Below are positions 7,015-28,300 of a stretch of 32,000 nucleotides of DNA, piece after piece (position 1 is the stretch's first letter; the number at the start of each line of letters is the position of its first letter). Under the pieces are notes generated by a model that did no database searches, was not told where the DNA came from, and saw nothing but the letters and a program-made list of their open reading frames with translations. This DNA is from Horticoccus luteus (lineage in GTDB: Bacteria; Verrucomicrobiota; Verrucomicrobiia; Opitutales; Opitutaceae): the NCBI RefSeq assembly GCF_019464535.1, contig NZ_CP080507.1:630001-662000 (forward strand). Reading direction: 5' to 3'. Position numbers and translations under genes: made by a program.

Positions 7015-7105
7015 AATTGAGAAACCCTGGTATCGCGATGATCTTCGCCTAGCATTCTTCTGAGGAGTTAATAGTGCCGGCGGATGGGAGCCGCGGCGAG
7101 TGAGG

Positions 7106-7202
7106 CGCGGGGTGAGGGCACCCAGCCTGCAGTTGGATTTGGTTCGGACGGGGAGCGGGCTGATTATCTTCGAGCGGAGCGGCGGGGTGAGGGCACTGCG
7201 AC
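7106..7202. repeat. pair of REP-like hairpin motifs (core CGGGGTGAGGGCAC) in a convergent intergenic region
   Basis: Core motif starts at 7108 (cggggtgagggcaccc) and 7183 (cggggtgagggcactg), exactly 75 nt apart. The core can fold as a GGGTG/CACCC stem. The same core occurs twice at 10156 and 10231. Confidence 0.5.
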
Positions 7203-7258
7203 TACACGGGAGGCTGAGATGACGGGGCCGGCCGTTTTTAAGAAATCGCTATATAATG

Positions 7259-8326
7259 TCAGTCGTCGTGCGCGAGGTGAGTGGGCGCGGGGGCGTGAAC
7301 GGGGGCGGTGCGCTCGGTGGCGGCAGGGTAGGTGCGGGTGGTGCCGCCCCATTTGTCGCAGCCGCCTTCGCCGCTGGGGCGGACGGTGGGTTTTTGAATA
7401 TCCGCGTAGCCGCGGTAGGCGTAGGGATCCTGGCCGGCGACGATGATGATGTCGCGGTAATCGTAGCGTGCGTTGTGCTGATCGTCAGGGGTCTTGCCCC
7501 ATGGGAGAAACGATTCACAGCTCATGTAGTGGTTCACCAAGGCGCGGCGATAGGTGCCCTCGGGGGCGCGATTGGGCAGCGAGCGGTGCAACAGGTAGCC
7601 GTTGAAAAACACGACTGAGCCGGCGGCGACTTCGACGGGGACGGCCTGTTCGTCGCGATAGGGAAAGCCGACCGATTGATCGGAGCAATCGAAGCGGCGG
7701 TCGCCGTGCCACTGCTGCTCCCAGAGGATACCGGGGCGATGCGAGCCGGGCAGAACCCAGAGGCAGCCGTTGTCGATCGTGGCGCGGTCGAGGGCGATCC
7801 ACGCGCCGGTCAGCGAGCGGTCGCGAGTGGGGATGTAATCTTCGTCCTGGTGCCAGGCCTGGCCGGGTTTGCCGGAGGCTTTGATGAAGAGCATCGATTG
7901 CATGAACTTCACGTTGGGGCCGATGACGTGGGTGAGCGCGGCGACGCTGGGCGCGTTGTGGATGGCGGCGGTCATGACCGCCGAACATTTGTGTGGGAAG
8001 TGGATGCAGAGGAAGCGGCGGAGGACGGAGTCGTCGAGCTCGGCTGGATCGGCGCGCGGGTGATCGGGCAACTCGCCGCGTTCGCCGCGGCAGATGAGGG
8101 TGGTCTCGCGTTTCAGGGTTTCGATTTCGGCGGCGGAGAACGCGTCCTCGAGCACGAGGTAGCCGTTGGCGGCGAAGAAGCGCTGGACGGCCGCGGGATC
8201 GGCGTCGGGCGAGAAGTAGCCGGTCGGGCGGACGGCGGGAAAATCGCTGCGGCGGGTGCCGGCGAAACCGCCGGTGTCAACGACGAGGGAAGGGGCGGCG
8301 GGTGTTTCCAAGATTGCAGAGCTCAT
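7259..8326 (-). CDS. phytanoyl-CoA dioxygenase (PhyH) family Fe(II)/2-oxoglutarate-dependent oxygenase
   Basis: PhyH-like N-terminus (FAANGYLVLEDAFSAAEIETLK). HxD iron motif in AWHQDEDYIP. GCLWVLPGSH and the distal His in FFNGYLLHRSLPN. A ~60-aa C-terminal tail has no obvious domain. Confidence 0.8.
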   Translation of the reverse strand: MSSAILETPAAPSLVVDTGGFAGTRRSDFPAVRPTGYFSPDADPAAVQRFFAANGYLVLEDAFSAAEIETLKRETTLICRGERGELPDHPRADPAELDDSVLRRFLCIHFPHKCSAVMTAAIHNAPSVAALTHVIGPNVKFMQSMLFIKASGKPGQAWHQDEDYIPTRDRSLTGAWIALDRATIDNGCLWVLPGSHRPGILWEQQWHGDRRFDCSDQSVGFPYRDEQAVPVEVAAGSVVFFNGYLLHRSLPNRAPEGTYRRALVNHYMSCESFLPWGKTPDDQHNARYDYRDIIIVAGQDPYAYRGYADIQKPTVRPSGEGGCDKWGGTTRTYPAATERTAPVHAPAPTHLAHDD

Positions 8327-12729: not shown

Positions 12730-13971
12730 ATGACATGCTTTCGTTCGCTGGCGCTGATTCTCATGTGGGCGGCGTTGTCGGCTGGCGCGATGCGTGGCGC
12801 CGAAGTGCGGGCGGTGGCATCGCCGGAGCGGTCAGCACCATCGGAGGTGAGGAGCGCGGCAACCGTCGATCACTCGCCGGCGGCGCCGGTGGCGCAGGCG
12901 TTAACGGCGGTGACGGGGATCGCGATTTCGCCGCTGTTGGGGACGAGCGCGTATGGCGCGTATCAGTGGTTTCGGGCGAAGGACGACGCGGCGCGAGCGA
13001 AGCTCCCGTGGTTCGCGCAATGGTATTTTTTTGCCCCGGCGCTGCTGCTGGTCGGCGCGTGTGCGGCGAAGGACGCGCTCGGAGCGATTGTGCCACCCGG
13101 GTTGAAGAAGCCGTTGGATATGCTGGAAACCGTGGAGAATAAAATCAGCGGGCTGATCGCGGCGGGAGCGGTCGTGCCGATTCTGATGATGACGGCGGCG
13201 CAGGCGGGACAATCGACGCCGGTCGCGGCGGGCGGCGGCGGAGCAAGTGCGCTGGCGATGGTGCATTTCGGCGCGGCCGACGGCCGCTGGCTCCTGGGCG
13301 CGGCGGCGGTGGCGGTGGCGATCGTGACTTTCGGTTTCGTGTGGATGGCGTCGCACGCGATCAACGTGTTGATTTTGCTGAGCCCGTGGGGGGCGGTGGA
13401 CGCGGCGTTGAAGAGTTTGCGCACGGGGCTCATGGGGCTGCTCGCGTTGACGGCGATCATCAACCCGTGGGCGGGCGCGGCGCTCGCGGTCGCGATCATC
13501 GTGGTGGCGTATTTTCTGGCGGGCTGGGCGTTCCGGCTGACGACGTTCGGGTCGGCGTTTTGCTGGGATTTCTTCACGCTGCGGCGCACGCGGTTTCACG
13601 TGGCGGACGAAGCGAACGCGATGTTTGCGGGCGGCAACCTGCCGGAGGTGCCGGCACGGACCTACGGACGGTTGCGGCGAGAGGAGGACGGCTCGCTGGT
13701 CTTTGCGTTCAAGCCGTGGCTCGTGCTGCCGGAGCGGCGGGTGCCGCTGCCGACGAACGCGTTGTATATTGGACGCGGGTTGTTCTTTTCGGCGATCGTG
13801 ACGGAGGAAGGGCGTTCGTATCTACTCCTGCCGCCGCGGTATCGCGGACATGAGAGGGCGGTGCTCGATGTGTATAAATTCGTGTCGGTGCAGGACGCAG
13901 GTCTGCGGCGGGCGTGGAGTGTGCTGGGCGAGCTGTTTGGCGGCGCGGCGGCGAAGACCCAAATCATGTGA
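12730..13971 (+). CDS. polytopic inner-membrane protein of unknown function with a ~130-aa soluble C-terminal domain
   Basis: N-terminal signal-like segment (LALILMWAALSAGA). At least five hydrophobic helices, for example WYFFAPALLLVGACA, LIAAGAVVPILMMTAA and AALAVAIIVVAYFLAGWAF. The hydrophilic C-terminus is RFHVADEANAMF...YKFVSVQDAGL. I recognise no family. Confidence 0.6.
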   Translation: MTCFRSLALILMWAALSAGAMRGAEVRAVASPERSAPSEVRSAATVDHSPAAPVAQALTAVTGIAISPLLGTSAYGAYQWFRAKDDAARAKLPWFAQWYFFAPALLLVGACAAKDALGAIVPPGLKKPLDMLETVENKISGLIAAGAVVPILMMTAAQAGQSTPVAAGGGGASALAMVHFGAADGRWLLGAAAVAVAIVTFGFVWMASHAINVLILLSPWGAVDAALKSLRTGLMGLLALTAIINPWAGAALAVAIIVVAYFLAGWAFRLTTFGSAFCWDFFTLRRTRFHVADEANAMFAGGNLPEVPARTYGRLRREEDGSLVFAFKPWLVLPERRVPLPTNALYIGRGLFFSAIVTEEGRSYLLLPPRYRGHERAVLDVYKFVSVQDAGLRRAWSVLGELFGGAAAKTQIM

Positions 13972-14000: not shown

Positions 14001-14717
14001 TCACTGCGGCGCGTGGATCGTACGGGATTTCGACGGGACGACGGCGGGAAAAGGCACGCCGAATAACGCGGGGTGTTCCTGAGCGCTGCGATCGGCGTCG
14101 GGCGCGAGATGGCGAAAGACATCGTCGAAGCGCAGGCTGCACTGGAGGCGACGCTGTGTTTTGCTGTCGATCTTGGGATTGAGCACGAAGACGCACTCAG
14201 TGAAGGGCGGTTCGCGTTTCATCCGGGCGGCGGCGGCGCGCGCCTGCTGGGGTGTGAGGGAGCGGTCTTTGATGACGGCGTCGAGGCGGGCGAGATCGGC
14301 GCGCGTGACGGGCCCCCAGAGCTTGCGCCATGCGGCGGGATCGATGCGCGGCGCGACGATGTTGACGAAGCGCTTGGCGTCGCCCTCCTGTTGCCAATAG
14401 CCGATGACCAGCATGAAGGACTCGGCGATATCGAACTGGCGCAGCGCATCGCCGAGATCGACGGGTGTGTGGAATTTCGTGGCTTTGGGATTAACGGGGA
14501 CGCCGCCGTAGCGTTTGTTGGCCGACGCCGGGATATCCCACTTTTGTGTATAGCTCGGCGGGCGGTAGCCGTCGAAAAAGGTGTCGTCGACCCAGCGCTC
14601 GAACACGAGCCCGTGGTGCTGCACTTCCTGGGCCGGGGTGAAGGTGGCGGACGCGAGGCACGCCAGCGCGAGGGCGAAAAAGAAGAGCCGGAGACGGCGG
14701 GGCGGGGAGCGAACCAT
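14001..14717 (-). CDS. secreted hypothetical protein
   Basis: ATG at 14717 gives MVRSPPRRLRLFFFALALACLASATFTPAQE, a signal peptide. The mature part is about 210 aa and matches no family I can name. It is convergent with 12730-13971, with 29 bp between the stops. Confidence 0.6.
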   Translation of the reverse strand: MVRSPPRRLRLFFFALALACLASATFTPAQEVQHHGLVFERWVDDTFFDGYRPPSYTQKWDIPASANKRYGGVPVNPKATKFHTPVDLGDALRQFDIAESFMLVIGYWQQEGDAKRFVNIVAPRIDPAAWRKLWGPVTRADLARLDAVIKDRSLTPQQARAAAARMKREPPFTECVFVLNPKIDSKTQRRLQCSLRFDDVFRHLAPDADRSAQEHPALFGVPFPAVVPSKSRTIHAPQ

Positions 14718-15115
14718 GGGGGCAGGGCAACTCAAGCAAACGGCGCTTTGGGGGCAAGCATCTGAAGGGACGCCGGCCGATCATATGATTTTTACCAAAT
14801 GGCGCACGTAAGAGCGCTGGGCGAAATGCCTGGAAAAGCAGGTTGCCCAAGTCGGGAAGCGACTTCCGACTTCGAGTCGCACCCATGCAAGGAAGCGTGG
14901 AAGCTCGCTTGGGACAGGCAGGTGGGGAGGCCTCGGGTGCCTCCCTCGCATGGCTGGCAACTCAACAAGGAACAGAAATGCCGTCACCCCGATCCTTTTC
15001 GCTCTCTGCCGAGCGCGTTGTTATAGCGCAAAGTTTGACCCCTGTTTCAATGCCGCTGTCGCAAGTTGTCAAAAGTCAAGACATGAGGTTGGTGGCTTGG
15101 TCTCCAAGCAAACGG

Positions 15116-15163
15116 GTATGATCCGGTGATAGGTAACAAACTATCCGGAGTGATAGGTGACAC
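15116..15163. repeat. IS left terminal inverted repeat with two direct subterminal motif copies
   Basis: Sequence: gtatgATCCGGTGATAGGTAACAaactATCCGGAGTGATAGGTGACAc. The ~20-nt motif ATCCGG(N0-2)TGATAGGTNACA occurs twice. Confidence 0.75.
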
Positions 15164-15203
15164 TTTTTGTTGATAGGTTGGAAGGGTTGGAGGCCAAGTA
15201 TAT

Positions 15204-16439
15204 TTAAGGGGAGGGTTTAAGGGAGGGGGCTTGGCTCCCTCCCTTTTCTGGATGGATCGGGCGGAAGGGAGCGACGTAGGCGGTCGGTTTGAAGCGGCCA
15301 CCTTCGGCATCAAAGCGCAGATGGCCGAGCAGGATATTGGCAAAATGCAGTTCCGTCTGGCCGTCGGGAGCACGGCGCAGGCCCACGCGTTTGCCGGCGA
15401 AGGCTTCGCCGAGGTGGTAGTTCTTTCCTTCGTGGGCGACATGGCCGCTGGTGCTGACCACCTTCACCTCGAACTCCGGGGCATAGACGATGGGTTTGTC
15501 GTGCTCGTTCAAGCGTCGGGTGCTGGGACGGTAAACCTCGGCCGGACGTTGCAGGTTCAGCGCCTCGTGCGGTCGTTCGTGGTTGTAGGTGTGCCGCCAG
15601 CGCTCGAAGCGGCGCTGCTGGGCGGTGAAGGTGGGCGAAGGAGGTTGGGTGGCCTCGGCCTTGAGATCGCGGTGCATGCGCTCGTGCGAGCCGTTGTCCT
15701 GTGGCGAGGCCGGGCGGGTGAACTCGACTTCGATGCCCTGCTCAATCCACCACACGCTCAAGGCGGAGAGCCGGCCCAGCCCGGTCGAGGCGAAGGGCGA
15801 TCCAAGGTCCACCCGGATGATCTCGGGCAGGCCGGTCTGGCGCATGAGCGCCCGGAAGGTGCCCAGGGTCCGGCGGAACTGCTGGTCGGGCTGGCCCCGC
15901 ACCGCCATGACGTAATGGCTGTAGCGGTCGCAGATGGTCAGCGGATCGCAGCGCTGGTTGTTGCCGAGCAGGAACCAGCCTTTGAAGTCCACGGTCCAGA
16001 CCTGATTGGGCTGATTGGGCACCGTCAGCGCCTGGTTGAGGGCGGGATAAACCCCGGGCCGACGGCGGCGCTTCACGCTCTGCCCGTGCCGCCGCAGGAT
16101 CTCGCCGATGGTGCTGCAAGCCGGTGGCCGTTCCACCCCGTGCTTGGTCTCCAGCAAGTCCTGGATCTTTTTCGGCCCCCAGGTCCGGTGCAGGCGACGC
16201 TCCGCCAGGACCAGCTTCTCGATCTGCGCGTCCGTGCGCTGCGGAAAACGGTGCGGGCGGTGGCTGCGCGGGCTCAAAGCCGCCAGGCCGCCTTCGGCGT
16301 AGCGTTCCAAATGCTTATAGGCCGTCTTCCGGCTGATGTTAAACTGCTCGCACAGATCCGTGATCGTGAACCGATCGGTCTGCGCCAAGCTGACGAAACG
16401 AATGATCTCTTCCATTGGGGTGGTGGTTTTCCACGGCAT
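15204..16439 (-). CDS. DDE transposase, integrase (rve) core with N-terminal HTH, IS481-like
   Basis: HTH: FTITDLCEQFNISRKTAYKHLERY. rve catalytic region: QVWTVDFKG (D), IIRVDLGSPF (D), ASPQDNGSHERMHRDLK (E). The length of 411 aa and the single ORF fit IS481-type elements. Confidence 0.9.
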   Translation of the reverse strand: MPWKTTTPMEEIIRFVSLAQTDRFTITDLCEQFNISRKTAYKHLERYAEGGLAALSPRSHRPHRFPQRTDAQIEKLVLAERRLHRTWGPKKIQDLLETKHGVERPPACSTIGEILRRHGQSVKRRRRPGVYPALNQALTVPNQPNQVWTVDFKGWFLLGNNQRCDPLTICDRYSHYVMAVRGQPDQQFRRTLGTFRALMRQTGLPEIIRVDLGSPFASTGLGRLSALSVWWIEQGIEVEFTRPASPQDNGSHERMHRDLKAEATQPPSPTFTAQQRRFERWRHTYNHERPHEALNLQRPAEVYRPSTRRLNEHDKPIVYAPEFEVKVVSTSGHVAHEGKNYHLGEAFAGKRVGLRRAPDGQTELHFANILLGHLRFDAEGGRFKPTAYVAPFRPIHPEKGGSQAPSLKPSP

Positions 16440-16450
16440 AGTGCCGCAGA

Positions 16451-16500
16451 GTGTAACCCATCACCCCGGATAATCTGTCACCTATCACTCCGGATCATAC
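16451..16500. repeat. IS right terminal inverted repeat with two direct subterminal motif copies
   Basis: The reverse complement reads gtatgATCCGGAGTGATAGGTGACAgattATCCGGGGTGATGGGTTACAc. It matches the left end apart from a 2-nt indel and a few substitutions. Confidence 0.75.
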
Positions 16501-16509
16501 CTCCCAGGG

Positions 16510-16941
16510 TCATTTCTGGAGGTCTAGCGATTCCAAAAGAGTGAAAGAAGTAACATCCTCAAGCTGGGCAAAAAACTGTTCAAAAGTGCCCGCAGTCTGG
16601 TTGACGAATCGACCTTCAATCACTGCATCAACCAAGTGGCCTCGCTTGCCCTTTTCAGCGGATGATCCCGGCCTATTTGCACCAATCCACAAACTAAGAG
16701 GATGCTTGTCATGATCGAATGCGCGTCTTGATTCATACAAGGCAGATATTGGAGACTCTAGGACGTAAAAACCACGAACCCGAACAACTTGTCCATCGAG
16801 CTCAACACGACGTTGCCACAGTTCGCTTAAGGATACTGAGCCTTCAGCCTTACGTTGTGACATGCCCGAGAGTGCCGATGCGAAGATGCCCAAGCAAACA
16901 ACACATAGAATCCAGAAGTTTGGCGTCTTGATCGATTTCAT
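16510..16941 (-). CDS. candidate immunity protein for the upstream RHS C-terminal toxin domain; N-terminal signal/anchor
   Basis: The ATG at 16939-16941 overlaps the RHS stop (16938-16940) as ATGA. The 143-aa product begins MKSIKTPNFWILCVVCLGIFASALSG (hydrophobic anchor). GC is about 45% (44 of the first 100 nt counted), against well over 60% in flanking core genes. I recognise no family. Confidence 0.6.
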   Translation of the reverse strand: MKSIKTPNFWILCVVCLGIFASALSGMSQRKAEGSVSLSELWQRRVELDGQVVRVRGFYVLESPISALYESRRAFDHDKHPLSLWIGANRPGSSAEKGKRGHLVDAVIEGRFVNQTAGTFEQFFAQLEDVTSFTLLESLDLQK

Positions 16942-19031
16942 GGGTAAGTGCCAATGGTGCGTTGAGTGGTAGACCATCCTTGATCAGTCCTGACGCCGCT
17001 GAGAACTTCGACGGTTATCCCGCTTCCGCCGGTTGCTGTCCGTCCGACGTAAAGCAAGATCGGACGCTGAAAGTCGTTGGAAGCAGAGATTACTTGGGCG
17101 ACATCTCCGTAAGCTCGCCCCGCAATCGTGTAGTTGCTGAAAGAATTGGCGGAAGGATGCGAATGATAGCCGCCAACGAATACCGTCCCGCCCGGCACAC
17201 TATAGGAGATAGATGCACCTGGAGTGACTGTCTTCCCATCCTGGACGTATGGAACACCTCCACGAACTGGCGTCGTGAAACCGTAATAGGTTACCTCATC
17301 CCGAACGTAAGAGAATATCGCGCCACTATATTCGAGGTGCTGCGGATCCGCGTTCGTCATGCGCTTTGCCAAAACGGACATCACTCCGCCGGCAGCATCT
17401 GCCGACGTGAAATCTCCATATGATGCCTGGCCGTTCGCACCTGAGACGCCACCTCGGGTTCCAGCGACCGCGACACCTCCCTCTGAGGCGATGCTCATTC
17501 CACTGTTTGGGGCTGCCTCCGCCTGCACTTGCGCGGCGGACCGGGCTGCGGCCGCGAGTGTCGCCGTAGCCGGAGCCATCTTTACATATGTATCGGTTAC
17601 GATCTCGTGTCCATTATACGTTACCCCGTTAGTCAGGGTCGCGAAAGCTGCCGCCGCTCCTGGCGTCAACGCTTTCACCTCGTTTCCATCGAGGTATATT
17701 AGTCCATTTTTTGCTGCGCTTTCGAGATACTTTCGAGCCTCGGCCTTCGCGACTCCTAGCGACGCAGCGGCCATTGACTGCTGCGCGAACGTTTCTGCCA
17801 TCCCGTTGAGCTGCTGATCACTTACTCCCGGCCCTCCAATCTGAGTTCCTCCCGCCCCTCCCTGGCCGTTCTCAGCCCACCAGACGCTCGCTGCAACCGC
17901 CCACCCGCGCTCTTCGGGCGACATGGCAGTCAGTTGCGCGGAGTATTCCTCGACGGTAAGCATGCCGAGCAGATCGATGCCATTGACCGGGTTGTTATTG
18001 CAGAAGCGGTAGAGGTTCATGCCGCCTTGCTCCCCACTGGGGTCGCGGCCGAGGAAGCGGCCGAGAGACGGCGAATAATACCGCATGCCGTAGTAAACCA
18101 AGCCGGTCTCGTCGTCGGTGTACTTCGTGGAGAAGCGGAAGGGGTTGTTCTTCGCTTGCGCGCCCTCCGCGCGCAACGACTCGCCGTAGGGGCTGTATTC
18201 GTAAGTGGCAGACTGGGTGCTGCCGACAGCGGAGAGGGTGGCCACATTGCCGTTGCCGTCGTAGCCGGGCAGGTAAGCGGTGACCGCCGTGCCGGTGTGA
18301 TCCACTTCCTGAAGCAGCGCACCAACTCCGCCGGTTGCCGTCAGGCTGCCCGCCTTGTCCAGTCCCCACGCATAGGTGCGTTGCCGGGTGCCGCTGCTGT
18401 TCAATTCCGCGATCAAGTTCCATCCTTGATAGATGAACCGCACGTCGCTTTCCAAGGACCAAGTGCTGCCGCTCCACTTTAAAACCTGCTTCACCGTGCG
18501 CCGTCCTGAGCTGTCGTAGCGAAACGTCACCCGCCGGCCCGGCAGCCCGACATTCATCGCCACCGTGCGCGTCTCCATCGCAGTCAGGCGGTTTTCTGCA
18601 TCCCAGGTGTAGTGCCAGCGACCGTCGCAGGTCACGTTGCCATCGGCATCATAGGTGATTCCTTCGGCGACCCACGGCAGAAACGCCGCCAGCAGGGAGG
18701 GGATTTCCACGGTGCCCGCCTTCGCCGCCTTCACCGCGATGCTGCTGGTATAGGCCGGGCCGTCGTTGTTATTCAACGTCACGCCGCTCGCCCAGTAGTT
18801 GCCCTGCCGGTCGGCGATCGCACCGTTGACCAGCACCTTCGCGTCCGCATCGGCGGTGCCCGAGACCGGGATATACAGATTGGGCCGCTTCGTGATCTGG
18901 TTGAGGTTGTTCACCGTCGCCGTCGCCTTCAACTCGGGATTGTCGGTCGCATTCACCTCCGTGCGATTGCCGGCTCCGTCGTAGCCATACACAAACTGCC
19001 GGTCCGGCAACGGCGCGCTCGTCGACGTCAC
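16938..19031 (-). CDS. RHS repeat protein fragment (5'-truncated): YD/RHS repeats, RHS core end, 340-aa C-terminal toxin-like domain
   Basis: YD repeats: YGYDGAGNRT, YDADGNV, WDAENRLT, FRYDSSGRR. RHS-associated core: YAWGLDKAGS...GGVGALLQ, YLPGYDGNGNV, YEYSPYGE, FRFSTKYTDDETGLVYYGMRYYSPSLGRFLGRDP. It ends in the PVNGIDLLGM variant of the PxxxxDPxGL cleavage motif (Met codon 17961-17963). The frame stays open, still YD-repeat-like, upstream to 19220, where a stop sits at 19221-19223. There is no ATG, GTG or TTG between 19220 and the GTG at 19031. Confidence 0.85.
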   Translation of the reverse strand: MTSTSAPLPDRQFVYGYDGAGNRTEVNATDNPELKATATVNNLNQITKRPNLYIPVSGTADADAKVLVNGAIADRQGNYWASGVTLNNNDGPAYTSSIAVKAAKAGTVEIPSLLAAFLPWVAEGITYDADGNVTCDGRWHYTWDAENRLTAMETRTVAMNVGLPGRRVTFRYDSSGRRTVKQVLKWSGSTWSLESDVRFIYQGWNLIAELNSSGTRQRTYAWGLDKAGSLTATGGVGALLQEVDHTGTAVTAYLPGYDGNGNVATLSAVGSTQSATYEYSPYGESLRAEGAQAKNNPFRFSTKYTDDETGLVYYGMRYYSPSLGRFLGRDPSGEQGGMNLYRFCNNNPVNGIDLLGMLTVEEYSAQLTAMSPEERGWAVAASVWWAENGQGGAGGTQIGGPGVSDQQLNGMAETFAQQSMAAASLGVAKAEARKYLESAAKNGLIYLDGNEVKALTPGAAAAFATLTNGVTYNGHEIVTDTYVKMAPATATLAAAARSAAQVQAEAAPNSGMSIASEGGVAVAGTRGGVSGANGQASYGDFTSADAAGGVMSVLAKRMTNADPQHLEYSGAIFSYVRDEVTYYGFTTPVRGGVPYVQDGKTVTPGASISYSVPGGTVFVGGYHSHPSANSFSNYTIAGRAYGDVAQVISASNDFQRPILLYVGRTATGGSGITVEVLSGVRTDQGWSTTQRTIGTYP

Positions 19032-19349
19032 GCTCCGGCCCAGATAATTGCGGGCGGCCGTGAGCTCCCCCCGCGCATTGTAACTGTAGCGGTAATAGGT
19101 GTCGTTGCCGTAGTCGGCAAACGCGAACCCGGACTGCTGGGCCGTCGCCCGCTGCCCCAGCGCGTTGTTATAGCCGAAACTGCGAAGCCTGTCCCGATTC
19201 GGGGCCTCGAAGCGGGAAACTCAAGCAGCGGACAATTTTGGGGTCAGCAGCTGGAAGGATGCCTGCCTATCAGACGAATTTTACAAGAAATTGGGCATCG
19301 GCGCCGCACGGGCCCCTGCTGAGAGTTGACCGCTGGGGGCGGATTCCCA

Positions 19350-22300
19350 ATGTCGCCCGCGATGTTCCGTCGTGTAATTCTTATAATCGTGGTGGTTTTG
19401 GCAGTGGGTTTGTTGGGGCGGTGGCTTTCGCACCGGACCGGCGGAGGTCCGACGAGCCCCATGGCGGCAGCGAAGAATGACGCTGGGTCGGCGGCACTCC
19501 CGGCTGCGAAGGGAACGCCGAATTCCCGCGTCGATGAGAAGCAGCCGGCTGCTTCCGCGAACTGGACGTCATTTCCTGTCTTTGGCGCGCACGGAGCGGT
19601 GACTTTGAGCGACATCCCGGCGGGGCGGTTTCACGATCAAGTGGCGCGGTTGGCGGCCGGACCGCAGGCGCGGACGCTGCACCAGCTCGAGACGTTGCAC
19701 GCGCCGCTCAATGACGTCAGATCGCTGCGCGTCGATGCGCGCGGAAGTCTGTATTACGTCTGCACGATTCCGGGTGCGCAGAAGGAGGCGATTGCGACGA
19801 CAACAAGCAGCGAGAGGAAGGCGGTGATGGAGGGCGCCATGCGGGCGGCCGGCGAGTCGCCCAGCGGCAGCCAATCGTATGCAGCCGCGGCGGGCGCGGC
19901 GGTGCCGGTCTCGGCACCTCCCATCCGGCATAGCAGACCGGGGGCGGAGAATGTCATCTATCTGAATTTCAGCGGTTATACAGTCAAAGGAACCGCGTGG
20001 AACGCGGAGCTGGCGAAGGCGGAGTTCGACTGCGTGCCTTACGATACGGATTCGGATCCGACGACGTTCAGCGCGAGCGAGCAGGCGGCGATAGTGGCGA
20101 TCTGGCAGCGGGTGGCGGAAGACTACCGGCCTTTTGATGTTGATGTGACGACGGAGCGCCCGGCGGTTTTTACCAGCCGCACGGCGCATGCCCTGATCAC
20201 GCGCAACACCGACGTGGAGTATAAACCGAATCCGGACAGCGACACCGCGAGCGGCGTGGCGTATGTCGGCGTCTTCGGCGGAGCGGATTATCAAAGCCTG
20301 AGCCCGGCGTTTATCTATTGGAATCTGCTGATCGATGTTTCCGCGATCGCGGATACGATTTCGCATGAGGTCGGCCACAATCTCGGGCTGACGCACGATG
20401 GGACGGCGACCGAGGAATACTATCGGGGCCATGGGATCGGCGAAACGTCGTGGGGGCCGTTGATGGGTGCGCCGAACAAATCGAACGTCACGCAATGGTC
20501 GAAGGGTGAGTATCGCGGGGCCAACAATCCGCAGGACGACATCGCGATCCTGACCGGAAATCTGGGGCGTCGGGCGGACGATGCGGGAGATAACGTGGCG
20601 GCGGCGAGTGAGATGGCCGCAGGCGGAGCGGGATGGACGGCGGGGGGCGTGATTGAGGCGAACACGGACAGCGATGTGTTCGCGTTTACGGCGGACTGGC
20701 CGAATGTGGCGATCACCGTTTCGCCGGACCGGCCGGCGGGGAGCGCCACGGGCGGCAACCTGGACGTGGTGGCGGAGTTGCTGGATGCGAGCGGGACGGT
20801 GGTGGCGCGGGCCGATCCGGCCAACCGTACGTCGGCGATCATCGTGCAGGATGTAGCGCCGGGTAGATATTATGTGCGAGTGAGCGCGACCGGGACGGGC
20901 AATCCGTGGGCGGATTCCCCGACGGGTTATACGAGTTACGGTTCGGTGGGCGGCTATACGATCGCGGTGGTGTCTCGTCCGCGCATCACGCCGGCCCGGA
21001 ATGTTGTGGCGCCGGGTCAGGCGATCGCGCTCGAGGGTGCGGTCGGAGGCGGTTCCGGGCTGACGTTTCGTTGGAAGAAGGACGGGACGTTCATCAATGG
21101 CGCGACGACGGCGACATTGAACGTGGGGAATGCGGGCCGCGGAGACAGCGGGGCCTATACGCTGGAAATCACGGATGGAAATTCGGTCACGCGGCGAGGC
21201 ACGGCGTTTGTACAGGTGGCGCCGGCGCAAACGGAATTGCGGATGTGGGGCAGTAACGACCGGGGGCAGACAGCGGTGCCGGCGGACTTGCACACGGCGG
21301 TGAGCGTGGCCGCGGGCGATGATAACACTTTGGTGATCGAGGCGGATGGGACGGTGCTTGGTTGGGGGCTCAACGACTCAGGCGACATGCGTGTGCCGGA
21401 CGGTCTCCATGCCGTAGTCGCAGTGGCAACGGCGGGAGAGCACGCGCTCGCGTTGCGGGCAGACGGGACCGTGATGAGTTGGGGACAAGCCGATGGTTTC
21501 AGTGTGAGGGGCGTGCCGGCAGATCTCGCGGACGTCGTGGCGGTGGCGACGGGCGGGAAGCATAATCTCGCGTTGAAAGCGGATGGGACGGTCGTCGCCT
21601 GGGGGGGCGACGAGAAGGGCCAGACTGACGTGCCGGATGGGCTGGTGGATGTGGTGGCCGTGGCCGCGGGGGATGAGCATTCGCTCGCGTTGAAACGGGA
21701 TGGGAAGGTGGTCGCCTGGGGCTCGAATTATGGCGGAGCGACGTATGTGCCGACTGGCCTGACGAATGTCGTGGCGATCAGCGCTGCGGCGAACGGATCT
21801 CTCGCGCTGAAAGCGGATGGGACGGTGGTGTTTTGGGGCATTGGCTACAATGGCCCGAGCAATATTCCGGCGGATCTGGCGCAGGTGAGCGGAGTGGCGT
21901 TGGGCGCGGAACACGTGATTGCGCGGAAGGGGGACGGGACGGTGGTGGGCTGGGGCTCGAATTCCTTTGGCCAGACGGATAATTCGCTCGGCTTGACCGA
22001 CGTGATTGGCGTCGCGGCAGGGCGGGCGCACACGGGGGCGTTGCGCGACGCGAGCCGCGATCACGTGCCCACGATCACTGTGGGGCCGCTGACGCAGAGC
22101 GTGGCAGAGGGCACGGACGTGACGTTGAGCGTGGAGGCGAGCGGCGGGGGAGCGCAGTTGTTTTATCAATGGCGGAAGAACGGGGAAGTCATCGCGGGCG
22201 CGACGACGGCCACGTTGGCGCTGGACGAAGTCACTTCCGCGGCCGGGGGTAGCTACGACATCATCGTGACCGACTGGCTCGGCAGGACGCCCTCGTCGCC

Positions 22301-25300
22301 CGCCGTGCTGACCGTGAATCCCTTGCCGGGCGTCACGAGCCGCAGCAATGCGCGACAGGTTTTGAGTCCGGGCGACACGCTGACATTGAACGTGGCGGCG
22401 ACGGGCGCCGGTGCGTTGCATTATCAGTGGCGGCGCAACGGGCGCGTGCTGGCGGGCGAGACCGGCGCAACGTTGAGCAAGCCGGCCATGGCCGTGGCGG
22501 ACAGCGGCACGTACATCGTGGAAGTGACCGACGACTGGGGGACGCGACGGGTGCCGTTCTTTGTGAACGTCATGCCCGCGTCAACGCGCGTCGTCATGTG
22601 GGGCGACGGCGGCGATCCGGCGCTCGGTGCGGTGCCGGCAGATCTGACGGATGCGGTGGCGCTGGCGGCCGGCTATCGCTTTTCGCTCGCGCTGCGGCGC
22701 GACGGCACGGTGGTGGGCTGGGGCCAGTCCAATGGTTGGGGCCAGGCGACACCGCCCGCCGGGCTGACCGACGTGGTGGCCATTGCGGGTGGGTTGTATC
22801 ATGCGCTGGCGTTGCGGGCGGATGGGACGGTGGTGGCTTGGGGAAGCCGGGGCGGCGATGCTTTGACGCTGCCGAGCGGTCTCTCCGACGTCACCGCGTT
22901 GGCCGGCGGTTCGGGGAATTCGACGTCGCTAAGGTTAAACGGCAAGGTCGCGACTTGGGGAGACGGAGGCTCCTACGGGCCGATGCCGGCGAACCTCCGC
23001 GATGTCATTGCGATCGCTTCCGGGGCTTATCACCGGTTGGCGTTGAAATCGGACGGCACAGTGGTCGCGTGGGGTTCGAACACTCGCGGGGAATCCACGG
23101 TGCCGGCGGGTCTCAGCGATGTGACTGCGATCGCGGCGGGCGGACAGATTTCGTTGGCGCTAAGAGCGGACGGCACGGTGGTCGCCTGGGGCGACAAGCC
23201 ATTTCCGGGCACGCAAATGCCGACGGACTTGAAGGACGTCGTGGCGATTGCGGTCGGGAGCACCGTGGCGGTGGCGTTGAAGAGCAATGGCACGCTGGTG
23301 ACGTGGGGTGCCAAAGTCGATGGGGCGAACATTCCCGCGGCGGTGACCAATACCCTCGCGGTCGCCATGGGCACCGCGCATGGGCTGGCGTTATGCGATA
23401 TGAGCCGGGACACCGCACCGGTGTTGACGACGGCTCCCGCGGACCAAGTGGTTGCGGAAGGACGCGATGCGACGTTCACGGTGGTGGTCAACGGCAGTGC
23501 GCCGCTTTCATATCAATGGCGGAAGGACGGCGTGCCGGTGGCCGGCGCGACAAATGCCACGCTGACCATCGTCGCCGCGGTGCCGAGCGAAGCAGGCCGA
23601 TACGACGTCGTGGCGACAAATTTGAGGGGCACGGTGACATCGCCGGCCGCCACCCTCACCGTCCGCCCGTTGCCAATTCTCACGAGCTGGTCGCCGGCGC
23701 GGCAGCGAGTCGCGCAGGGCCAGTCGTTTTCGTTGGCGGCAGCGGCGACGGGCACGGGGGGTTTGCATTACGAGTGGCGGCACGATGGCCGCGTGATTCC
23801 CGGGGCGACCGCGGCGACGTTCGAACGAGCGGAGACATCGTCGACGGACGGCGGACTTTATACGGTGGTCGTCACGGACGACGTGGGCAGCCGCAGCTAC
23901 GTGAGCGTGGTTGTGGTCGCGCCCACGGCGACCGAAGTGCGGGCGTGGGGCTCCAACGGCTATGGACAAACGAATGTGCCGGCCAATCTTGGGAACGTCG
24001 TGTCGGTGGCGGCCGCAGGCGAGCATTCGCTCGCGTTGCAGGGAGACGGCAAGGTCGTCGCGTGGGGCCGCAATGCCTACGGGGAATCCACCGTGCCCGG
24101 CGCCCTGGGGCCGGTCGTGGCGATTGCGGGCGGCACAACGTTTTCGGTGGCGGTGACGGACGCGGGCCGCGTGGTGGCGTGGGGCGACAACGCTGCCGGG
24201 CAGTTGAACGTGCCCGGCGACCTCAGCGAGGTCGTCGCGGTGGCCGCGGGCGAGGGATTTATCGTGGCGCTGAAAGCTGATGGCACCGTGCGCGCGTGGG
24301 GCACCAATCGTTTCGGAGAGTCGACCCCGCCGAGCAGGCTGGGGAACGTGACGGCGATCGCCGCCGGTTCGAGCAACGCACTGGCCGTCAAGGCGGATGG
24401 CACGGTGATCAGATGGGGTTCGAATGACGCGGCCTTGGACGTGCCGGCAGACTTGACGGATGTTGCGAACGTGGCGAGCGGAGGGCTTTATGCGATCGCG
24501 ACCAAGAGAGATGGGACAGTCGCCAGTTGGGGTGGCGGTCTGGCGCCCGCGCCGGCCGGGACCAGCACTGTCGCGACGGTGGCGGTGGGGCCGGGCCACG
24601 CCTTGGTGGCCCGGACAGATGGAAGTGTCGTGGGCTGGGCGAACAGCAACGTTCCTCAGACGACGCCGCCGGCCAATCTCGCGAACGTAATCGCGGTGGC
24701 GGCGGGCAACGGGCATGAGCTCGCTTTGCGCGACGCGTCCGGGGGCAAGGCGCCGGTCATCCTGACGCAGCCGCGGGATCAAACGGTGGTCGAGGGAACC
24801 GCGACGATCTTGTCGGTGAACGCATCGGGAGGACCGTCGGTGTTGCGCTATCAGTGGCAAAAGGACGGCGCGGAGGTGGCCGGAGCCACGACGGCAGTGC
24901 TGGCACTCACCAACGTCACCGGTGGCGGGAGCGGGCGCTATACGGTCGTGGTGAGCAACGACCTGGGCACGGTCACTTCGCTGGCCGCGACGTTGACGGT
25001 GCGGCTGCTGCCGGTCATCAGCGCCAGCAGCGCGGCGCGACTAGTGATCGCGCCCGGGCAACCCCTGGCGCTGTTTGTCACCGCGAGCGGAACGGGAAGT
25101 TTGCATTACCAATGGTATAAAGATGGCTCCGCTCTGCCGGGAGCGACGGCCGCCACTTATAACAAAAACGCCGCCGTCGTGACGGACAGTGGAAATTATT
25201 GGGTGGAGGTGAGCGATGAGGTGGGGGTGCGCGGGTCCGCGAAAATGAGCGTCCTCGTCAGTGGGGTGCGGACGGAGATCCGCGGGTGGGGAAAGGGCGT

Positions 25301-28300
25301 CGGCGCAAACGTGCCCGCGGGGATTTATGATGCGGTCGCGGTGGTGGCGGGAAATTTTTACGCCCTGGCGTTGCGGGCGGATGGGACGGTGGTCAGCTGG
25401 GGCTCTAGTTATGGCGGAGCGGCGCAGGTGCCCGCTGGCCTCACCAATGTGATCGGCCTGGCGGGGGGCAGCTCGCAGTCCTATGCGTGGCGCGCCGACG
25501 GGACCGTGGTGGGTTGGGGCCAGCCGTCGGGCGAGATGAACGTGCCGCAGGGGCTTTCCGACGTGATCGCTTTGGCGGCGGGGGATTTTCATGTGCTCGC
25601 TTTGCGGGGCGATGGCACGGTCGTGGCGTGGGGCAACGCGACGCAAGGAGCCCAAGCCGTCCCCGCGGGACTGGCTCACGTCACGGCGATCGCGGCGGGT
25701 CGCGCGCATTCGCTCGCTCTGAAATCCGATGGCACGGTGACGGGCTGGGGATCGAATGCGTGGGGACAGGCCACCCCGCCGGCCGGGCTTAAGCAAGTGG
25801 TGGCGATCGCGGCGGGTGGCGATCTTTCCGTGGCGTTGAAACGCGATGGCACGGTGGTCACGTGGGGTCTCGGGGCGGCGGATATCACCAGGCCGCCGCA
25901 GGGGCTGACCGACGTGGTCAAGATTGCCGCGGGCAATGCCTTCGCGCTGGCCGTGCGCGCGAATGGGAGCGTCACGGCCTGGGGCTACGATACGAGCCTC
26001 GCGGTGAGCACGGCACCGGCGTTGCGCGACGTGGTCAACGTCGCCGGCGGATATGACTTCGGGCTGGCCCTGCGCATGGCCGCCAACGATCCCGCACCGG
26101 TGATCACCGCTCAGCCCATTCCCGCCACAGCTGTGGAGGGCTCGTCGGCGACGTTAAACATTGCAGTCAAGGCCGGCGATTCCTCTCCCGTGTTTGAGTG
26201 GAGGAAAAACGGCGTTTCGCTCGGTCAGTCGATTCAGTCGCAGCTCACGCTGACGAACATCACGCCAGCGGATGCGGGCGGCTATTCGGTCGTCGTGACC
26301 AACAGTGGCGGCTCGGTGACGAGCGAGGCGGTGGCTTTGACCGTGGTGCCGCTGCCGAGGATCGTGCGGCCGGCGAAACCGCGGCAGCTTTTGCGCGCGG
26401 GGGAGCCGCTGACGCTGGCGATCGCGGCGGAAGGCACCGGGACTTTGCACTACCAGTGGTTCCGCAACCGGCGGCCGATCGACGGAGCCACTCAGGCGAG
26501 TTACGTGCGGCCGTCGTGCACGGTGGCGGACAAGGGACTTTATTGGGTGGAGGTCAGCGACGATGTCGGCCTGCGGCGGAGCCGCCTCCTCAGTGTAAGC
26601 GTAGCGCCACAGGTGAGTGCCGTGGTGGCGTGGGGCGATGTGCTGACCTACAATTTGCTGCCCGACAAGGTAACGGATGTAGCCGAGATGGCGGGCGGCA
26701 CCCAGTTCGCGTTCTATTTGCATGCGGATGGCACGGTCAGCGTGGTCGGCAATCCGGGCGTGGCCCACGTGCCGGCCGGACTGGCAGGAGTGGTCGCCAT
26801 CGGAGCGGGCGGTTGGCAAGCGATGGCCGTGAAGGCCGATGGTTCGGTGGTCCAGTGTGGTAGCAACCTATATCCGGCCCCGGCGTACTTGACCGATGTC
26901 GTGGCCGTGGCCGCGGGCAATGGACATTGTCTCGCGTTGCGGGCGGACGGCACCGTGGTCGCATGGGGTGACAACAGAAACAACCAGACCACCGTGCCGG
27001 CGGGTTTGACCAACGTCGTGGCCATTAGCGCCGGGCAGGATTCCTCAGCGGCGGTGACCGCGGACGGCACGCTCTATTGCTGGGGTTACGGAGGTTCATG
27101 GATAGTCACGCGGGATGCCGTCGCGGTGGCGACGGGAACCGATGCCACGCTGGTCCTCAAGAGCGACGGAACGGTCTTTATGCAGAGATACGGATCGCAT
27201 GGGGAGTCGAGCGTGCCGGCGGGGCTCGCGAACGTGGCCGAAGTGGTCGCCGGTTCGCTGCATCTGGTGGCGTTGAAATCCGACGGCACGGTGGTGGCGT
27301 GGGGCCAATCGTCCCTCGGAAAAACCGTGGTGCCCGCCGGTCTCGACCGCGTCGTGGGCATAGCGGCAGGCAGCGATTTTTCGCTCGCCCTGCGCGAGGC
27401 GGCACCGGCGAGTGCGCCCGCGATCGTGACTGCGCCGGTCGGCCAACGCGTGCTGGCGGGACGCTCAGCGGAATTTCGCGTGAGCGTCGTGGGAACGCCG
27501 GCCCTGACTTTCCAGTGGAAAAAGAACGGAGCCGCACTTCCCGGAGAAACGGCGGCGACACTGAAACTAGCGGCCGTGGAGGCTTCCGATGCGGGCGCCT
27601 ACAGCGTCACCGTGACCAATGCGCAAGGCAGCGCGACCAGTGCAGCGGCGACGCTCACGGTCGTGCCGCGTTCCGCATTTGCGGGTAGCTATTTCGGGAC
27701 GTTTGGCTCGGGCGGCGCGTGGGGATTGCACGTGCGCGACGACGGCACGGCGGTGCTGGTCGCGGACTTGCGGAGCCGGCAGAGCGCGCTCGTGGTGGAG
27801 TTCAGCGTGGCGGCGGACGGCACGTTTGACGCACTGGGCGCGGAGATGCGCTCTTCGCTACAAACGCCGGCGGGCGGGCGTTGGGCGGCGGCGCCGCTGG
27901 CAAGCGATTTCTCCCTCACCGGACAGATCGGCGGAAACGGTGCGATCGCCGGCAACCTGACGGGCCTGGGCGAAACGTTCTCGGGCGCGCTCGACGCGGC
28001 GAACGGTGCAGCGCACGCGCGAGCGGGCTATTATACAGCGACGGCGCTCGCGGCTGACGCCGGCGAAACATATCTCGTGATCGGTCCGTCCGGGCAAGCC
28101 GTCGCGGTGGTCACAGCGCCGGGGCGGGTCGAGAGTGCGGCCGGCATCGTCGACGCCGGGGGGCAGTTGGCGGCGACGAGCGGCTCGCACTCTTCGATCA
28201 ACGTTGCGGTGGGTTCGGCTGGAGAAAATGTCAGCGTGAGCGTGCTTCCGGCGGGCGCGGCGGCGGCGATTCGTTACGCGGGATTGTCCGATCGCGTGGC

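What the first reader, a model, noticed from the sequence alone, without database searches (positions are those of the whole stretch)
16510..19220. Orphan RHS polymorphic-toxin cassette: truncated RHS shell, uncharacterised 340-aa C-terminal domain, coupled immunity candidate
The minus-strand frame carries canonical YD repeats and the RHS core, ending in PVNGIDLLGM. In characterised Rhs/Tc proteins this motif marks autoproteolytic release of the C-terminal toxin. Downstream are 340 residues I cannot assign to any characterised toxin family. A 143-aa ORF then starts inside the RHS stop codon (ATGA). That arrangement is the hallmark of a toxin-immunity pair. The cassette lacks an N-terminal half and any start codon upstream of 19031, sits next to an IS element, and drops in GC towards its 3' end. 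All of this fits a horizontally exchanged orphan toxin/immunity module. This is the best candidate in the window for an undescribed effector-immunity system.
Basis: partly seen in the sequence, partly recalled or inferred. Interest (0 to 1): 0.8.

Follow-up and report, generated by a model that had tools for sequence, protein, structure and literature searches.

The report
Truncated RHS toxin-immunity cassette, JAB-type
This is a leftover tail end of a bacterial RHS "contact weapon" gene in Horticoccus luteus, carrying a rare zinc-hydrolase-like (JAB-fold) toxin domain and a matching exported antidote gene; it is an ordinary kind of cassette whose toxin and antidote belong to small, previously unnamed sub-families.

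Summary
A minus-strand frame is open from 19220 to 16938. It holds YD repeats and an RHS-associated core (TIGR03696, E=1.5e-26) ending in DLLG|M, followed by 340 residues. A 143-aa ORF starts in an ATGA overlap, a complete IS481-family element lies 15 bp downstream, and GC falls from 64% to 49%.

Only the last ~420 of ~2100 shell residues remain, so the fragment cannot deliver a toxin by itself.

The "unassignable" 340 residues split into a 180-aa linker and a 160-aa domain (16941-17420).
- The AlphaFold2 model is confident (pLDDT 92), and its Foldseek matches are almost all MPN/JAB proteins.
- E, HSH, S and D are conserved.
- Profile comparison with genuine DUF4329/Tox-JAB-2 domains gives 96% probability (E=3e-9).
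- It fails Pfam's own threshold and has about ten relatives among 1.84 billion representatives.

The 143-aa protein has no family assignment. Homologues follow toxin relatives in three independent metagenome lineages. One more survives beside a toxin stub in a Verrucomicrobia MAG (dN/dS ~0.15). All carry export signals, which suggests a periplasmic target rather than the RNase role the literature assumes.

Verdict: a real, ordinary orphan cassette and a new variant of a known kind.

The parts
17961..19220 (-). 5'-truncated RHS/YD-repeat shell fragment: the last ~420 residues of a shell that is ~2100 residues long in relatives. There is no start codon before GTG 19031.
   Evidence: Open frame. 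RHS_repeat E=2.2e-7. tblastn aligns it to residues ~1695-2114 of a 2425-aa Rariglobus RHS protein and ~1740-2151 of a 2459-aa Verrucomicrobia RHS protein.
17961..18197 (-). RHS-associated core domain ending in ...NNNPVNGIDLLG|M, the presumed autoproteolytic release site.
   Evidence: TIGR03696 E=1.5e-26, 92.7 bits against a cutoff of 32.5. The relative P0006 has the same DLLGM ending. Cleavage itself is inferred from established knowledge of Rhs/Tc proteins.
17421..17960 (-). 180-residue Ala/Gly-rich linker or pre-toxin region with no detectable family.
   Evidence: No Pfam or NCBIfam hit. Exhaustive phmmer hits cover only CT residues ~120/163-340. Linker length varies among relatives.
16941..17420 (-). 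160-residue JAB/MPN-fold toxin domain, a divergent Tox-JAB-2 (DUF4329-like) clade. Conserved residues are E30, H86-S-H88, S95, D106 and Y124 in domain numbering.
   Evidence: AF2 pLDDT 92, pTM 0.88. Almost all of the best Foldseek PDB hits are MPN/JAB proteins. hhalign against a DUF4329 alignment gives Prob 96.1%, E=3e-9. Invariant H, H, D, Y and near-invariant E. Relatives give sub-threshold DUF4329 and Prok-JAB hits.
16510..16941 (-). 143-aa cognate immunity candidate (NCBI K0B96_02610) with an N-terminal export signal (MKSIK-FWILCVVCLGIFASA|LSG), starting in the ATGA overlap with the toxin stop codon. It belongs to a new small family.
   Evidence: Overlap. 100% match to the H. luteus protein and a 73% homologue in a Verrucomicrobia MAG. 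Homologues lie directly downstream of toxin relatives in L085, L087 and L088. Hydrophobic N-termini, with lipoboxes LAGC/LFAC in some. dN/dS 0.15. No Pfam or PDB match.
15126..16495 (-). Complete IS481-family insertion sequence that bounds the cassette (context, not part of the system).
   Evidence: Transposase 15204-16439, NF033577 E=8e-62. Terminal inverted repeats.

Best explanation
The locus is an orphan, 5'-truncated rhs cassette in the chromosome of Horticoccus luteus (Verrucomicrobiota, Opitutaceae).

It keeps the last fifth of an RHS shell, the RHS core with its DLLG|M self-cleavage site, and a 180-aa linker. It also keeps a 160-aa JAB/MPN-fold metal-dependent hydrolase domain, which is a divergent clade of the Tox-JAB-2/DUF4329 toxin family with an intact E...HSH...S...D site. 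A translationally coupled gene for a 143-aa exported immunity protein of a new small family follows.

In a full-length parent the toxin would be enclosed in the shell, cut free at DLLG|M and delivered to a neighbouring cell. Relatives of the parent are ~2400 aa long and begin with a Sec-type signal.

Here the N-terminal ~1700 residues are missing. The toxin part can therefore only serve as recombination stock, or is decaying. The immunity gene is the part most likely still in use, protecting against the same toxin fired by relatives.

The immunity protein is exported in every lineage found. The most likely mode of action is therefore a zinc-dependent peptidase or isopeptidase attacking a periplasmic or cell-envelope target, blocked by direct binding of the immunity protein in the periplasm.

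Shown: anatomy, fold, homology, conserved pairing, export signals.
Inferred: cleavage, delivery, periplasmic site of action (about 45% likely) and substrate (unknown).
For: Organism: the immunity ORF is 100% identical to K0B96_02610 of H. luteus; taxonomy.

RHS parts and truncation.

Toxin domain:
- Exhaustive phmmer finds 11 proteins (including self) among 1.84e9 representatives, and all align to CT residues ~120/163-340.
- Several relatives sit directly after an RHS core.
- The AF2 model has pLDDT 92.
- Foldseek top hits are CSN6, Rpn8/Rpn11, BRCC36 and Prp8-Jab1 (E down to 6e-4). In BFVD, three of the five best, all weak, hits (E>=0.014) are a JAB-domain phage protein (ranks 1 and 5) or a 26S proteasome regulatory subunit.
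- H86, H88, D106 and Y124 are invariant and E30 nearly so. This matches the 'E, H[ST]H, S, D' signature given for Tox-JAB-2 in PMC3482391.
- hhalign against E. coli RhsB-CT (a genuine DUF4329, Pfam E=6.7e-40) plus two other DUF4329 domains gives Prob 96.1%, E=3e-9, with all motifs in register.

Immunity:
- ATGA coupling.
- Homologues lie immediately downstream of toxin relatives in L085, L087/L086 and L088, and they diverge in step with the toxins.
- In MAG contig L001 the immunity gene persists next to a ~35-codon toxin stub, and homology ends at the immunity stop codon.
- dN/dS is 0.15.

Export:
- All five family members have an N-terminal hydrophobic segment (KD13 2.1-2.8), and two have lipoboxes.
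- The different immunity gene next to the more distant JAB toxin P0013 is also a lipoprotein.
- E. coli YhhH and the Klebsiella YbbC/YhhH-family protein also carry signals.
- Zhang et al. note that Imm65 of Tox-JAB-1 is a lipoprotein.
- L087 also carries a periplasm-acting Tlde1-domain cassette.
Against: - The window protein itself gets no Pfam DUF4329 hit, and only E=0.27 to Prok-JAB.
- Foldseek TM-scores are modest (~0.4).
- The Ser-to-Asp spacing of the JAMM motif is lengthened by an insert in this copy.
- The literature proposes a nuclease/RNase role for Tox-JAB-2, which implies a cytoplasmic target.
- The gene downstream of a genuine DUF4329 in Tenacibaculum has no export signal.
- No promoter-like site above chance and no ATG start were found for the fragment.
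- The immunity structure could not be modelled (pLDDT 52), and no toxin-immunity complex could be predicted.
- Whether H. luteus holds a full-length rhs gene could not be checked, because its genome was not among the hits in the searchable collection.
Confidence: 0.7

Rival explanations
1. The JAB domain is a cytoplasm-acting nuclease or RNase, as the literature assumes for Tox-JAB-2/DUF4329. The membrane-anchored or exported 143-aa protein would then protect by blocking entry, or would act from the membrane.
For: Zhang et al. 2012 argue that toxin JAB domains, like RadC, lack the ubiquitin-tail tunnel and may be nucleases. Later T6SS papers label DUF4329 an RNase. The gene downstream of the Tenacibaculum DUF4329 lacks a signal.
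Against: No experiment supports the RNase label; a 2024 preprint states that activity and substrate are unknown. Every immunity partner found for this clade is exported, as are those of the neighbouring P0013 clade and the E. coli Imm-NTF2-2 proteins.
Confidence: 0.25
2. The whole cassette is a dead remnant: neither toxin nor immunity is expressed or useful, and the open frames simply have not yet decayed.
For: It is 5'-truncated, has no ATG and no promoter-like site above chance. It lies against an IS element, and no main rhs gene is found in 32 kb.
Against: A 760-codon frame without any stop or frameshift, with all catalytic residues intact. The immunity gene is intact with dN/dS ~0.15 against a MAG copy, which is itself kept after loss of its toxin. 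dS is near saturation, so the ratio is approximate and reflects past rather than present selection.
Confidence: 0.15
3. The 143-aa ORF is not an immunity protein but an unrelated periplasmic protein or an accessory factor such as a chaperone or adaptor for the toxin.
For: No binding or neutralisation data exist. The protein has no family assignment and its structure model is poor.
Against: A homologue lies directly downstream of toxin relatives in three other lineages with tight or overlapping junctions. It is also retained alone beside a toxin stub. That pattern is the hallmark of immunity genes in polymorphic toxin systems (established knowledge; PMC3482391).
Confidence: 0.07

Closest known systems
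Tox-JAB-2 / Pfam DUF4329 (PF14220) C-terminal toxin domains of Rhs proteins, e.g. E. coli K-12 RhsB-CT with YhhH (Imm-NTF2-2)
   Same: - Sits at the C-terminus after the RHS core.
- Has the JAB/deaminase-like fold.
- Carries the same E, H[ST]H, S, D signature and the YLG(R/T) strand.
- Profile-profile match of 96%.
- The immunity gene is small, lies immediately downstream or overlapping, and carries an N-terminal export signal.
   Different: - Falls below the Pfam gathering score: no hit for the window protein, and E 2e-4 to 0.04 for relatives.
- Has an extra beta-hairpin insert between Ser and Asp and a C-terminal two-strand extension ending in ...TIGTYP.
- The immunity protein is unrelated in sequence to Imm-NTF2-2 (hhalign Prob 0.04%).
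- Found in Verrucomicrobia and environmental metagenomes and is very rare.
Tox-JAB-1 (Pfam Toxin-JAB1) with Imm65 in Bacteroidetes RHS proteins
   Same: An RHS-borne JAB-fold toxin whose immunity protein is exported; Imm65 has a signal peptide and lipobox according to PMC3482391.
   Different: No member of this clade hit Toxin-JAB1 at E<=1. Tox-JAB-1 has an NxxxE motif and is restricted to Bacteroidetes.
Orphan rhs toxin/immunity modules of Enterobacteria (Salmonella, E. coli, Serratia)
   Same: A 5'-truncated rhs fragment that keeps core-coding sequence, with a different toxin tip, its own immunity gene, lower GC and nearby mobile elements.
   Different: Classical orphans lie in tandem just downstream of a full-length main rhs gene, with which they can recombine. 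Here no main rhs gene lies within 32 kb, and the upstream neighbour is a divergently oriented 3259-aa RCC1/Ig protein.
JAMM/MPN+ isopeptidases (Rpn11, CSN5, BRCC36, AMSH; Prok-JAB PF14464)
   Same: Same fold by structure search. Same set of metal-binding and catalytic residues in the same order on the same secondary-structure elements (HxH at the end of a strand, Asp at the start of the following helix).
   Different: About 10% sequence identity and TM ~0.4. The Ser-Asp spacing is not the canonical S-x-x-D in this copy. There is no ubiquitin-like partner in the context, and the domain serves as a toxin cargo.

Membership tests
RHS / YD-repeat polymorphic toxins | YD/RHS repeats | tested here: met
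   PF05593 E=2.2e-7 with 3 stretches. TIGR01643 E=4.6e-6. 39-51% identity to the shells of full-length Verrucomicrobia RHS proteins.
RHS / YD-repeat polymorphic toxins | RHS-associated core domain ending in a DPxGL-type self-cleavage motif just before the variable C-terminus | tested here: met
   TIGR03696 E=1.5e-26, 92.7 bits against a cutoff of 32.5. The motif variant is NNNPVNGIDLLG|M, shared with relative P0006. Cleavage itself is not testable here.
RHS / YD-repeat polymorphic toxins | Complete shell with N-terminal plug and trafficking or secretion domain | tested here: not met
   Only the last ~420 residues are present. They align to residues ~1695-2114 of 2425. There is no start codon before 19031 and no other RHS piece in the window.
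RHS / YD-repeat polymorphic toxins | Variable C-terminal toxin followed by a small cognate immunity gene | tested here: met
   ATGA overlap and a conserved toxin-immunity pairing in L085, L087 and L088.
Tox-JAB-2 / DUF4329 (PF14220) | Scores above the Pfam gathering threshold (28.6 bits) | tested here: not met
   No hit for the window domain even at E<=10. Relatives score 14-22 bits, E 1.9e-4 to 0.042. E. coli RhsB-CT as a positive control scores 136 bits.
Tox-JAB-2 / DUF4329 (PF14220) | Conserved E, H[ST]H, S, D residues (Zhang et al. 2012) | tested here: met
   E30 (LEYSG), H86-S-H88, S95 (SFS) and D106 (YGD). H, H and D are invariant and E nearly so across 10 sequences. Signature as quoted.
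Tox-JAB-2 / DUF4329 (PF14220) | Homology to genuine members by profile comparison | tested here: met
   hhalign of A2 against A4 (three DUF4329 domains): Prob 96.1%, E=3e-9, 106 columns. Against RhsB-CT alone: 68%, E=4.8e-5.
Tox-JAB-2 / DUF4329 (PF14220) | JAB (deaminase-like) alpha+beta fold | tested here: met
   AF2 pLDDT 92, pTM 0.88. Foldseek PDB hits are almost exclusively MPN/JAB proteins, with probability up to 1.00.
Tox-JAB-2 / DUF4329 (PF14220) | Partner immunity of the Imm-NTF2-2 family (PF15631) | tested here: not met
   No Pfam hit for any of the five immunity homologues. hhalign against YhhH/YbbC: Prob 0.04%. A fold-level relationship could not be tested because the model has pLDDT 52.
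Tox-JAB-2 / DUF4329 (PF14220) | Catalytic activity and substrate | not testable with these tools
   Also unknown for the family itself. Papers call it an RNase without direct evidence, and one states that activity and substrate are unknown.
JAMM/MPN+ metalloisopeptidases | E-x(n)-H-x-H-x(7)-S-x-x-D motif with canonical spacing | tested here: inconclusive
   The residues are present in order. The spacing is HSH-x6-S followed by a 10-residue insert before D in the window copy. Relative P0013 has HSH-x6-S-x-x-D. Prok-JAB Pfam E=0.27 for the window and 4.9e-4 for P0013, both below the cutoff.
Orphan rhs modules | 5'-truncated rhs fragment with its own toxin tip and immunity gene | tested here: met
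Orphan rhs modules | Lies downstream of, and shares core sequence with, a full-length main rhs gene in the same genome | tested here: inconclusive
   None within the 32-kb window. The rest of the H. luteus genome could not be searched, because no H. luteus contig was among the hits in genome contigs.

The most novel reading that the evidence does not exclude
JAB-fold polymorphic toxins may be periplasm-acting zinc (iso)peptidases that cut a cell-envelope substrate, rather than nucleases or RNases. Candidate substrates include peptidoglycan cross-links or the lipoprotein-peptidoglycan bond. This would apply to the present clade and, by extension, to the DUF4329/Tox-JAB-2 tips of widespread E. 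coli and Salmonella Rhs effectors. The 143-aa protein would be the founding member of a new exported immunity family that blocks them. It would be the first envelope-targeting activity assigned to the JAB/MPN fold, and it would correct an annotation now spreading through the T6SS literature.
Probability: 0.3. Interest if true: 0.6.

Novelty: new variant of a known kind. Interest (0 to 1): 0.35.

Why it matters
In itself the locus is a routine relic of bacterial warfare and will not change how RHS systems are understood. It has two modest points of value.

- It defines a rare clade of JAB-type toxin domain that Pfam does not detect, together with a conserved, previously unnamed immunity family. 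These could be added to toxin and immunity profile sets.
- The consistent export signals on the immunity partners form a cheap, testable argument that JAB-type Rhs toxins work in the periplasm. Those partners include E. coli YhhH and YbbC-type proteins. The RNase label currently copied from paper to paper has no experimental basis.

Tried and rejected
Searches and tools that led nowhere:
- The word-indexed search of 5.8 billion proteins with the 346-aa C-terminal region found nothing. With the domain profile it found only two fragments. The exhaustive representative search was needed.
- PDB sequence searches were empty or spurious for the CT, the toxin profile, the DUF4329 profile and the immunity profile.
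- tblastn of the CT against plasmids found no match.
With two sequences it gave pLDDT 52, and its Foldseek hits (E>=0.1, generic alpha/beta sandwiches) were disregarded. No complex prediction was possible.
- The genome-contig scan with the shell fragment did not return H. luteus, so the hunt for a main rhs gene failed.
- None of the related RHS loci carries this toxin.
- Promoter and terminator scans were at chance level.
- Rfam gave no hit in the window.
- The IS inverted repeat does not recur at the 5' break, so the truncation is not explained by this IS.

Readings considered and rejected:
- Tox-JAB-1 membership: no Pfam hit.
- A deaminase toxin: no HxE/PCxxC motif.
- Imm-NTF2-2 identity for the immunity protein.
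Full report
**Origin and observation.** The 143-aa ORF is 100% identical to hypothetical protein K0B96_02610 of Horticoccus luteus, on a 4.32-Mb contig. H. luteus belongs to Verrucomicrobiota, Opitutaceae.

On the minus strand a frame is open for 760 codons, from 19220 to the TGA at 16938-16940. The first possible start codon is GTG at 19031.

- Pfam RHS_repeat scores E=2.2e-7.
- NCBIfam TIGR03696 (RHS-associated core) scores E=1.5e-26 at residues 342-420, which is nt 17961-18197. This confirms the RHS identity, and the core ends in NNNPVNGIDLLGM.
- Exactly 340 residues follow.
- The next gene starts at 16941, so its ATG uses the last base of the toxin's final Pro codon plus the TG of the stop codon (CC[ATG]A). 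It runs to 16510 and encodes 143 aa.
- GC falls stepwise from 0.64 to 0.49 towards the 3' end, against ~0.65-0.70 around it.
- Immediately beyond lies a complete IS481-family element. Its transposase is at 15204-16439 (E=8e-62). Its terminal inverted repeats are at 15126-15164 and 16450-16495. Its end is 15 bp from the immunity stop codon.

**How truncated it is.** A scan of one genome per species with the 420-aa shell fragment returned no H. luteus contig. It did return Verrucomicrobia relatives at 39-51% identity.

Two of them are full-length ORFs of 2425 and 2459 aa. Each is followed by its own C-terminal tip and a small, adjacent or overlapping downstream ORF. Each begins with a Sec-type hydrophobic signal rather than a PAAR or VgrG-linked domain.

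tblastn of these proteins against the window aligns only their residues ~1695-2114 and ~1740-2151 to 19190-17961, and nothing else in the 32 kb. The window copy thus lacks about 1700 N-terminal residues, including the signal and roughly four-fifths of the shell.

The upstream neighbour is a divergently oriented 3259-aa RCC1/Ig/reprolysin protein. The IS inverted repeat does not recur at the 5' break. No promoter-like site above chance was found.

**What the 340 residues are.** Pfam, NCBIfam and PDB sequence searches of the whole region were empty. So was the word-indexed search of 5.8 billion proteins.

The exhaustive phmmer search of 1.84 billion cluster representatives found 11 proteins including self. 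All aligned only to residues ~120/163-340. The region is therefore a 180-aa Ala/Gly-rich linker (17421-17960) plus a 160-aa domain (16941-17420).

Several relatives carry the domain directly after an RHS core, among them P0006 (...NGYDLLGM...), P0009, P0011 and P0012. Others are short stand-alone cassettes.

- The alignment shows invariant H86, H88, D106 and Y124, near-invariant E30, and a conserved SFS.
- An AlphaFold2 model built on this alignment is confident (pLDDT 92, pTM 0.88). HxH lies at the end of a strand and Asp at the start of the next helix.
- Foldseek against the PDB returned almost only MPN/JAB proteins: CSN6, Rpn8/Rpn11, BRCC36 and Prp8-Jab1. E-values reach 6e-4 and probabilities reach 1.00, but TM-scores are only ~0.4.
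- In the viral library, three of the five best hits, all weak (E>=0.014), were a JAB-domain phage protein (ranks 1 and 5) or a 26S proteasome regulatory subunit.

**Relation to the known family.** Zhang et al. 2012 (PMC3482391) describe Tox-JAB-2, "DUF4329 in Pfam". They give it a deaminase-like fold, the conserved residues E, H[ST]H, S, D, RHS association and the immunity family Imm-NTF2-2.

The window protein gives no DUF4329 hit, but four relatives give sub-threshold hits (E 1.9e-4 to 0.042). One relative gives Prok-JAB at E=4.9e-4.

I fetched three genuine DUF4329 domains as references:
- E. coli K-12 RhsB-CT, with Pfam E=6.7e-40;
- a Klebsiella RhsD-type tip;
- a Tenacibaculum protein.

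Profile-profile comparison of my family alignment with these three gave Prob 96.1%, E=3e-9 over 106 columns. E, HxH, D and the YLG strand were all in register. Against RhsB-CT alone the values were 68% and E=4.8e-5.

The domain is therefore a divergent, rare clade of the Tox-JAB-2/DUF4329 superfamily. It works like that family but is not a member by Pfam's own threshold.

No structure of either clade is in the PDB by sequence search. The papers I could read give no experiment on its activity. The "RNase" label is passed on by citation, and one preprint says outright that activity and substrate are unknown.

**The immunity candidate.** It has no Pfam, NCBIfam or PDB match and only one close homologue: P0002, 73% identical, from a Verrucomicrobia MAG.

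On that MAG contig the homologue is preceded by a degraded stub of the last ~35 toxin codons. DNA homology to the window starts in that stub and ends at the immunity stop codon. The toxin tip plus the immunity gene therefore behave as one module, and the immunity gene outlives the toxin.

dN/dS between the two immunity genes is 0.15, or 0.11 for the mature part. dS is ~1.4, near saturation, so this is approximate.

A metagenome scan with the toxin profile found three further independent lineages. In each, the ORF directly after the toxin relative is a recognisable homologue of the 143-aa protein:
- L085 1188-1583;
- L087 6456-6860, with L086 holding the same sequence;
- L088 1510-1938, with a 4-nt overlap.

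These homologues are 23-34% identical to the window protein, while the corresponding toxins are 35-51% identical. This conserved, co-diverging pairing is strong comparative evidence for a cognate immunity function.

The family is unrelated in sequence to Imm-NTF2-2 (hhalign Prob 0.04%).

**Export and what it implies.**
- All five family members start with a strongly hydrophobic N-terminal segment after a few basic residues. Two have lipoboxes (LAGC, LFAC), and the window copy has an ASA|L signal-peptidase-type site.
- The different small gene that follows the more distant JAB toxin P0013 in L087 is also a lipoprotein (IFGGC).
- The same island holds a Tlde1-domain cassette, a known periplasm-acting toxin type.
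- E. coli YhhH and the Klebsiella YbbC/YhhH-family protein, partners of genuine DUF4329 tips, also begin with hydrophobic export-type segments; the latter has LFAC.
- Zhang et al. record that Imm65, partner of Tox-JAB-1, is a lipoprotein.

An immunity protein normally sits where its toxin acts. I therefore infer that this JAB toxin attacks a periplasmic or envelope target, most plausibly as a zinc peptidase or isopeptidase. This goes against the nuclease idea.

It is an inference, which I rate at about 45%. The gene downstream of the Tenacibaculum DUF4329 has no signal, so the rule is not universal.

**Mechanism.**
- Shown: a truncated RHS shell, an intact core motif, an intact JAB-type site, a coupled exported partner and a module boundary at an IS.
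- Inferred from established Rhs/Tc biology: in a full-length parent the tip is encapsulated, released by aspartyl autoproteolysis at DLLG|M and delivered to neighbours.
- Inferred here: the fragment cannot be exported or assembled, so the toxin part is recombination stock or decaying.
- Also inferred here: the immunity gene is the part likely kept in use.

**Verdict.** This is a real but ordinary orphan polymorphic-toxin cassette. Its toxin is a new, rare clade of a computationally known but experimentally uncharacterised JAB family, and its immunity protein founds a small new exported family. I score interest at 0.35. The most novel reading still open is a periplasmic envelope-cleaving role for JAB-type Rhs toxins, including those of E. 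coli and Salmonella, which I rate at about 0.3.

Noticed in passing
window 19326-29105 (+): A 3259-aa ORF with an N-terminal hydrophobic segment and a reprolysin-like zinc-protease motif (HEVGHNLGLTHD). After these come many RCC1-like repeat blocks alternating with Ig domains. Its start lies only ~100 bp from the 5' break of the rhs fragment, in divergent orientation.
   Followed up: partly
window 2818-7014 (+): A 1398-aa thermolysin-family (M4) protease with propeptide and Ig domains. Together with the giant RCC1/Ig protein this suggests a region rich in large secreted proteins.
   Followed up: no
window 15126-16495: A complete IS481-family element with 39-nt imperfect terminal inverted repeats. 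A perfect 20-nt core is duplicated at the right end (16452-16471 and 16476-16495).
   Followed up: partly
L087 2900-7700 (marine metagenome contig; L086 is the same sequence): An island of stand-alone toxin/immunity cassettes: two different JAB-like toxins, each with an exported partner, and a Tlde1-domain ORF (6950-7309, PF10908 E=3.5e-7) followed by a multi-TM protein. It also holds an ORF with an HEVGH metalloprotease motif (2904-3611).
   Followed up: partly
L002 4900-5283 (E. coli K-12 yhhH) and L004 1966-2334 (Klebsiella YbbC/YhhH-family gene): Both Imm-NTF2-2 immunity proteins of genuine DUF4329 Rhs tips begin with hydrophobic export-type segments; the Klebsiella YbbC/YhhH-family protein has a lipobox-like LFAC. 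This fits poorly with the 'RNase' annotation of DUF4329 used in T6SS papers.
   Followed up: partly
L001 6469-6780 and 7764-8087: In the MAG contig the orphan immunity gene is flanked by two paralogous ~105-aa ORFs with signal-like N-termini (…SGKALRIILIAIPEI… / …SGKSLQAILVAIPEI…) and no Pfam family on record. They may be further immunity-type genes of a poly-immunity locus.
   Followed up: no
window 14001-14735 (-) and 12730-13971 (+): Two sizeable ORFs (244 aa with a signal-like N-terminus, and 413 aa) with no Pfam or NCBIfam match.
   Followed up: no
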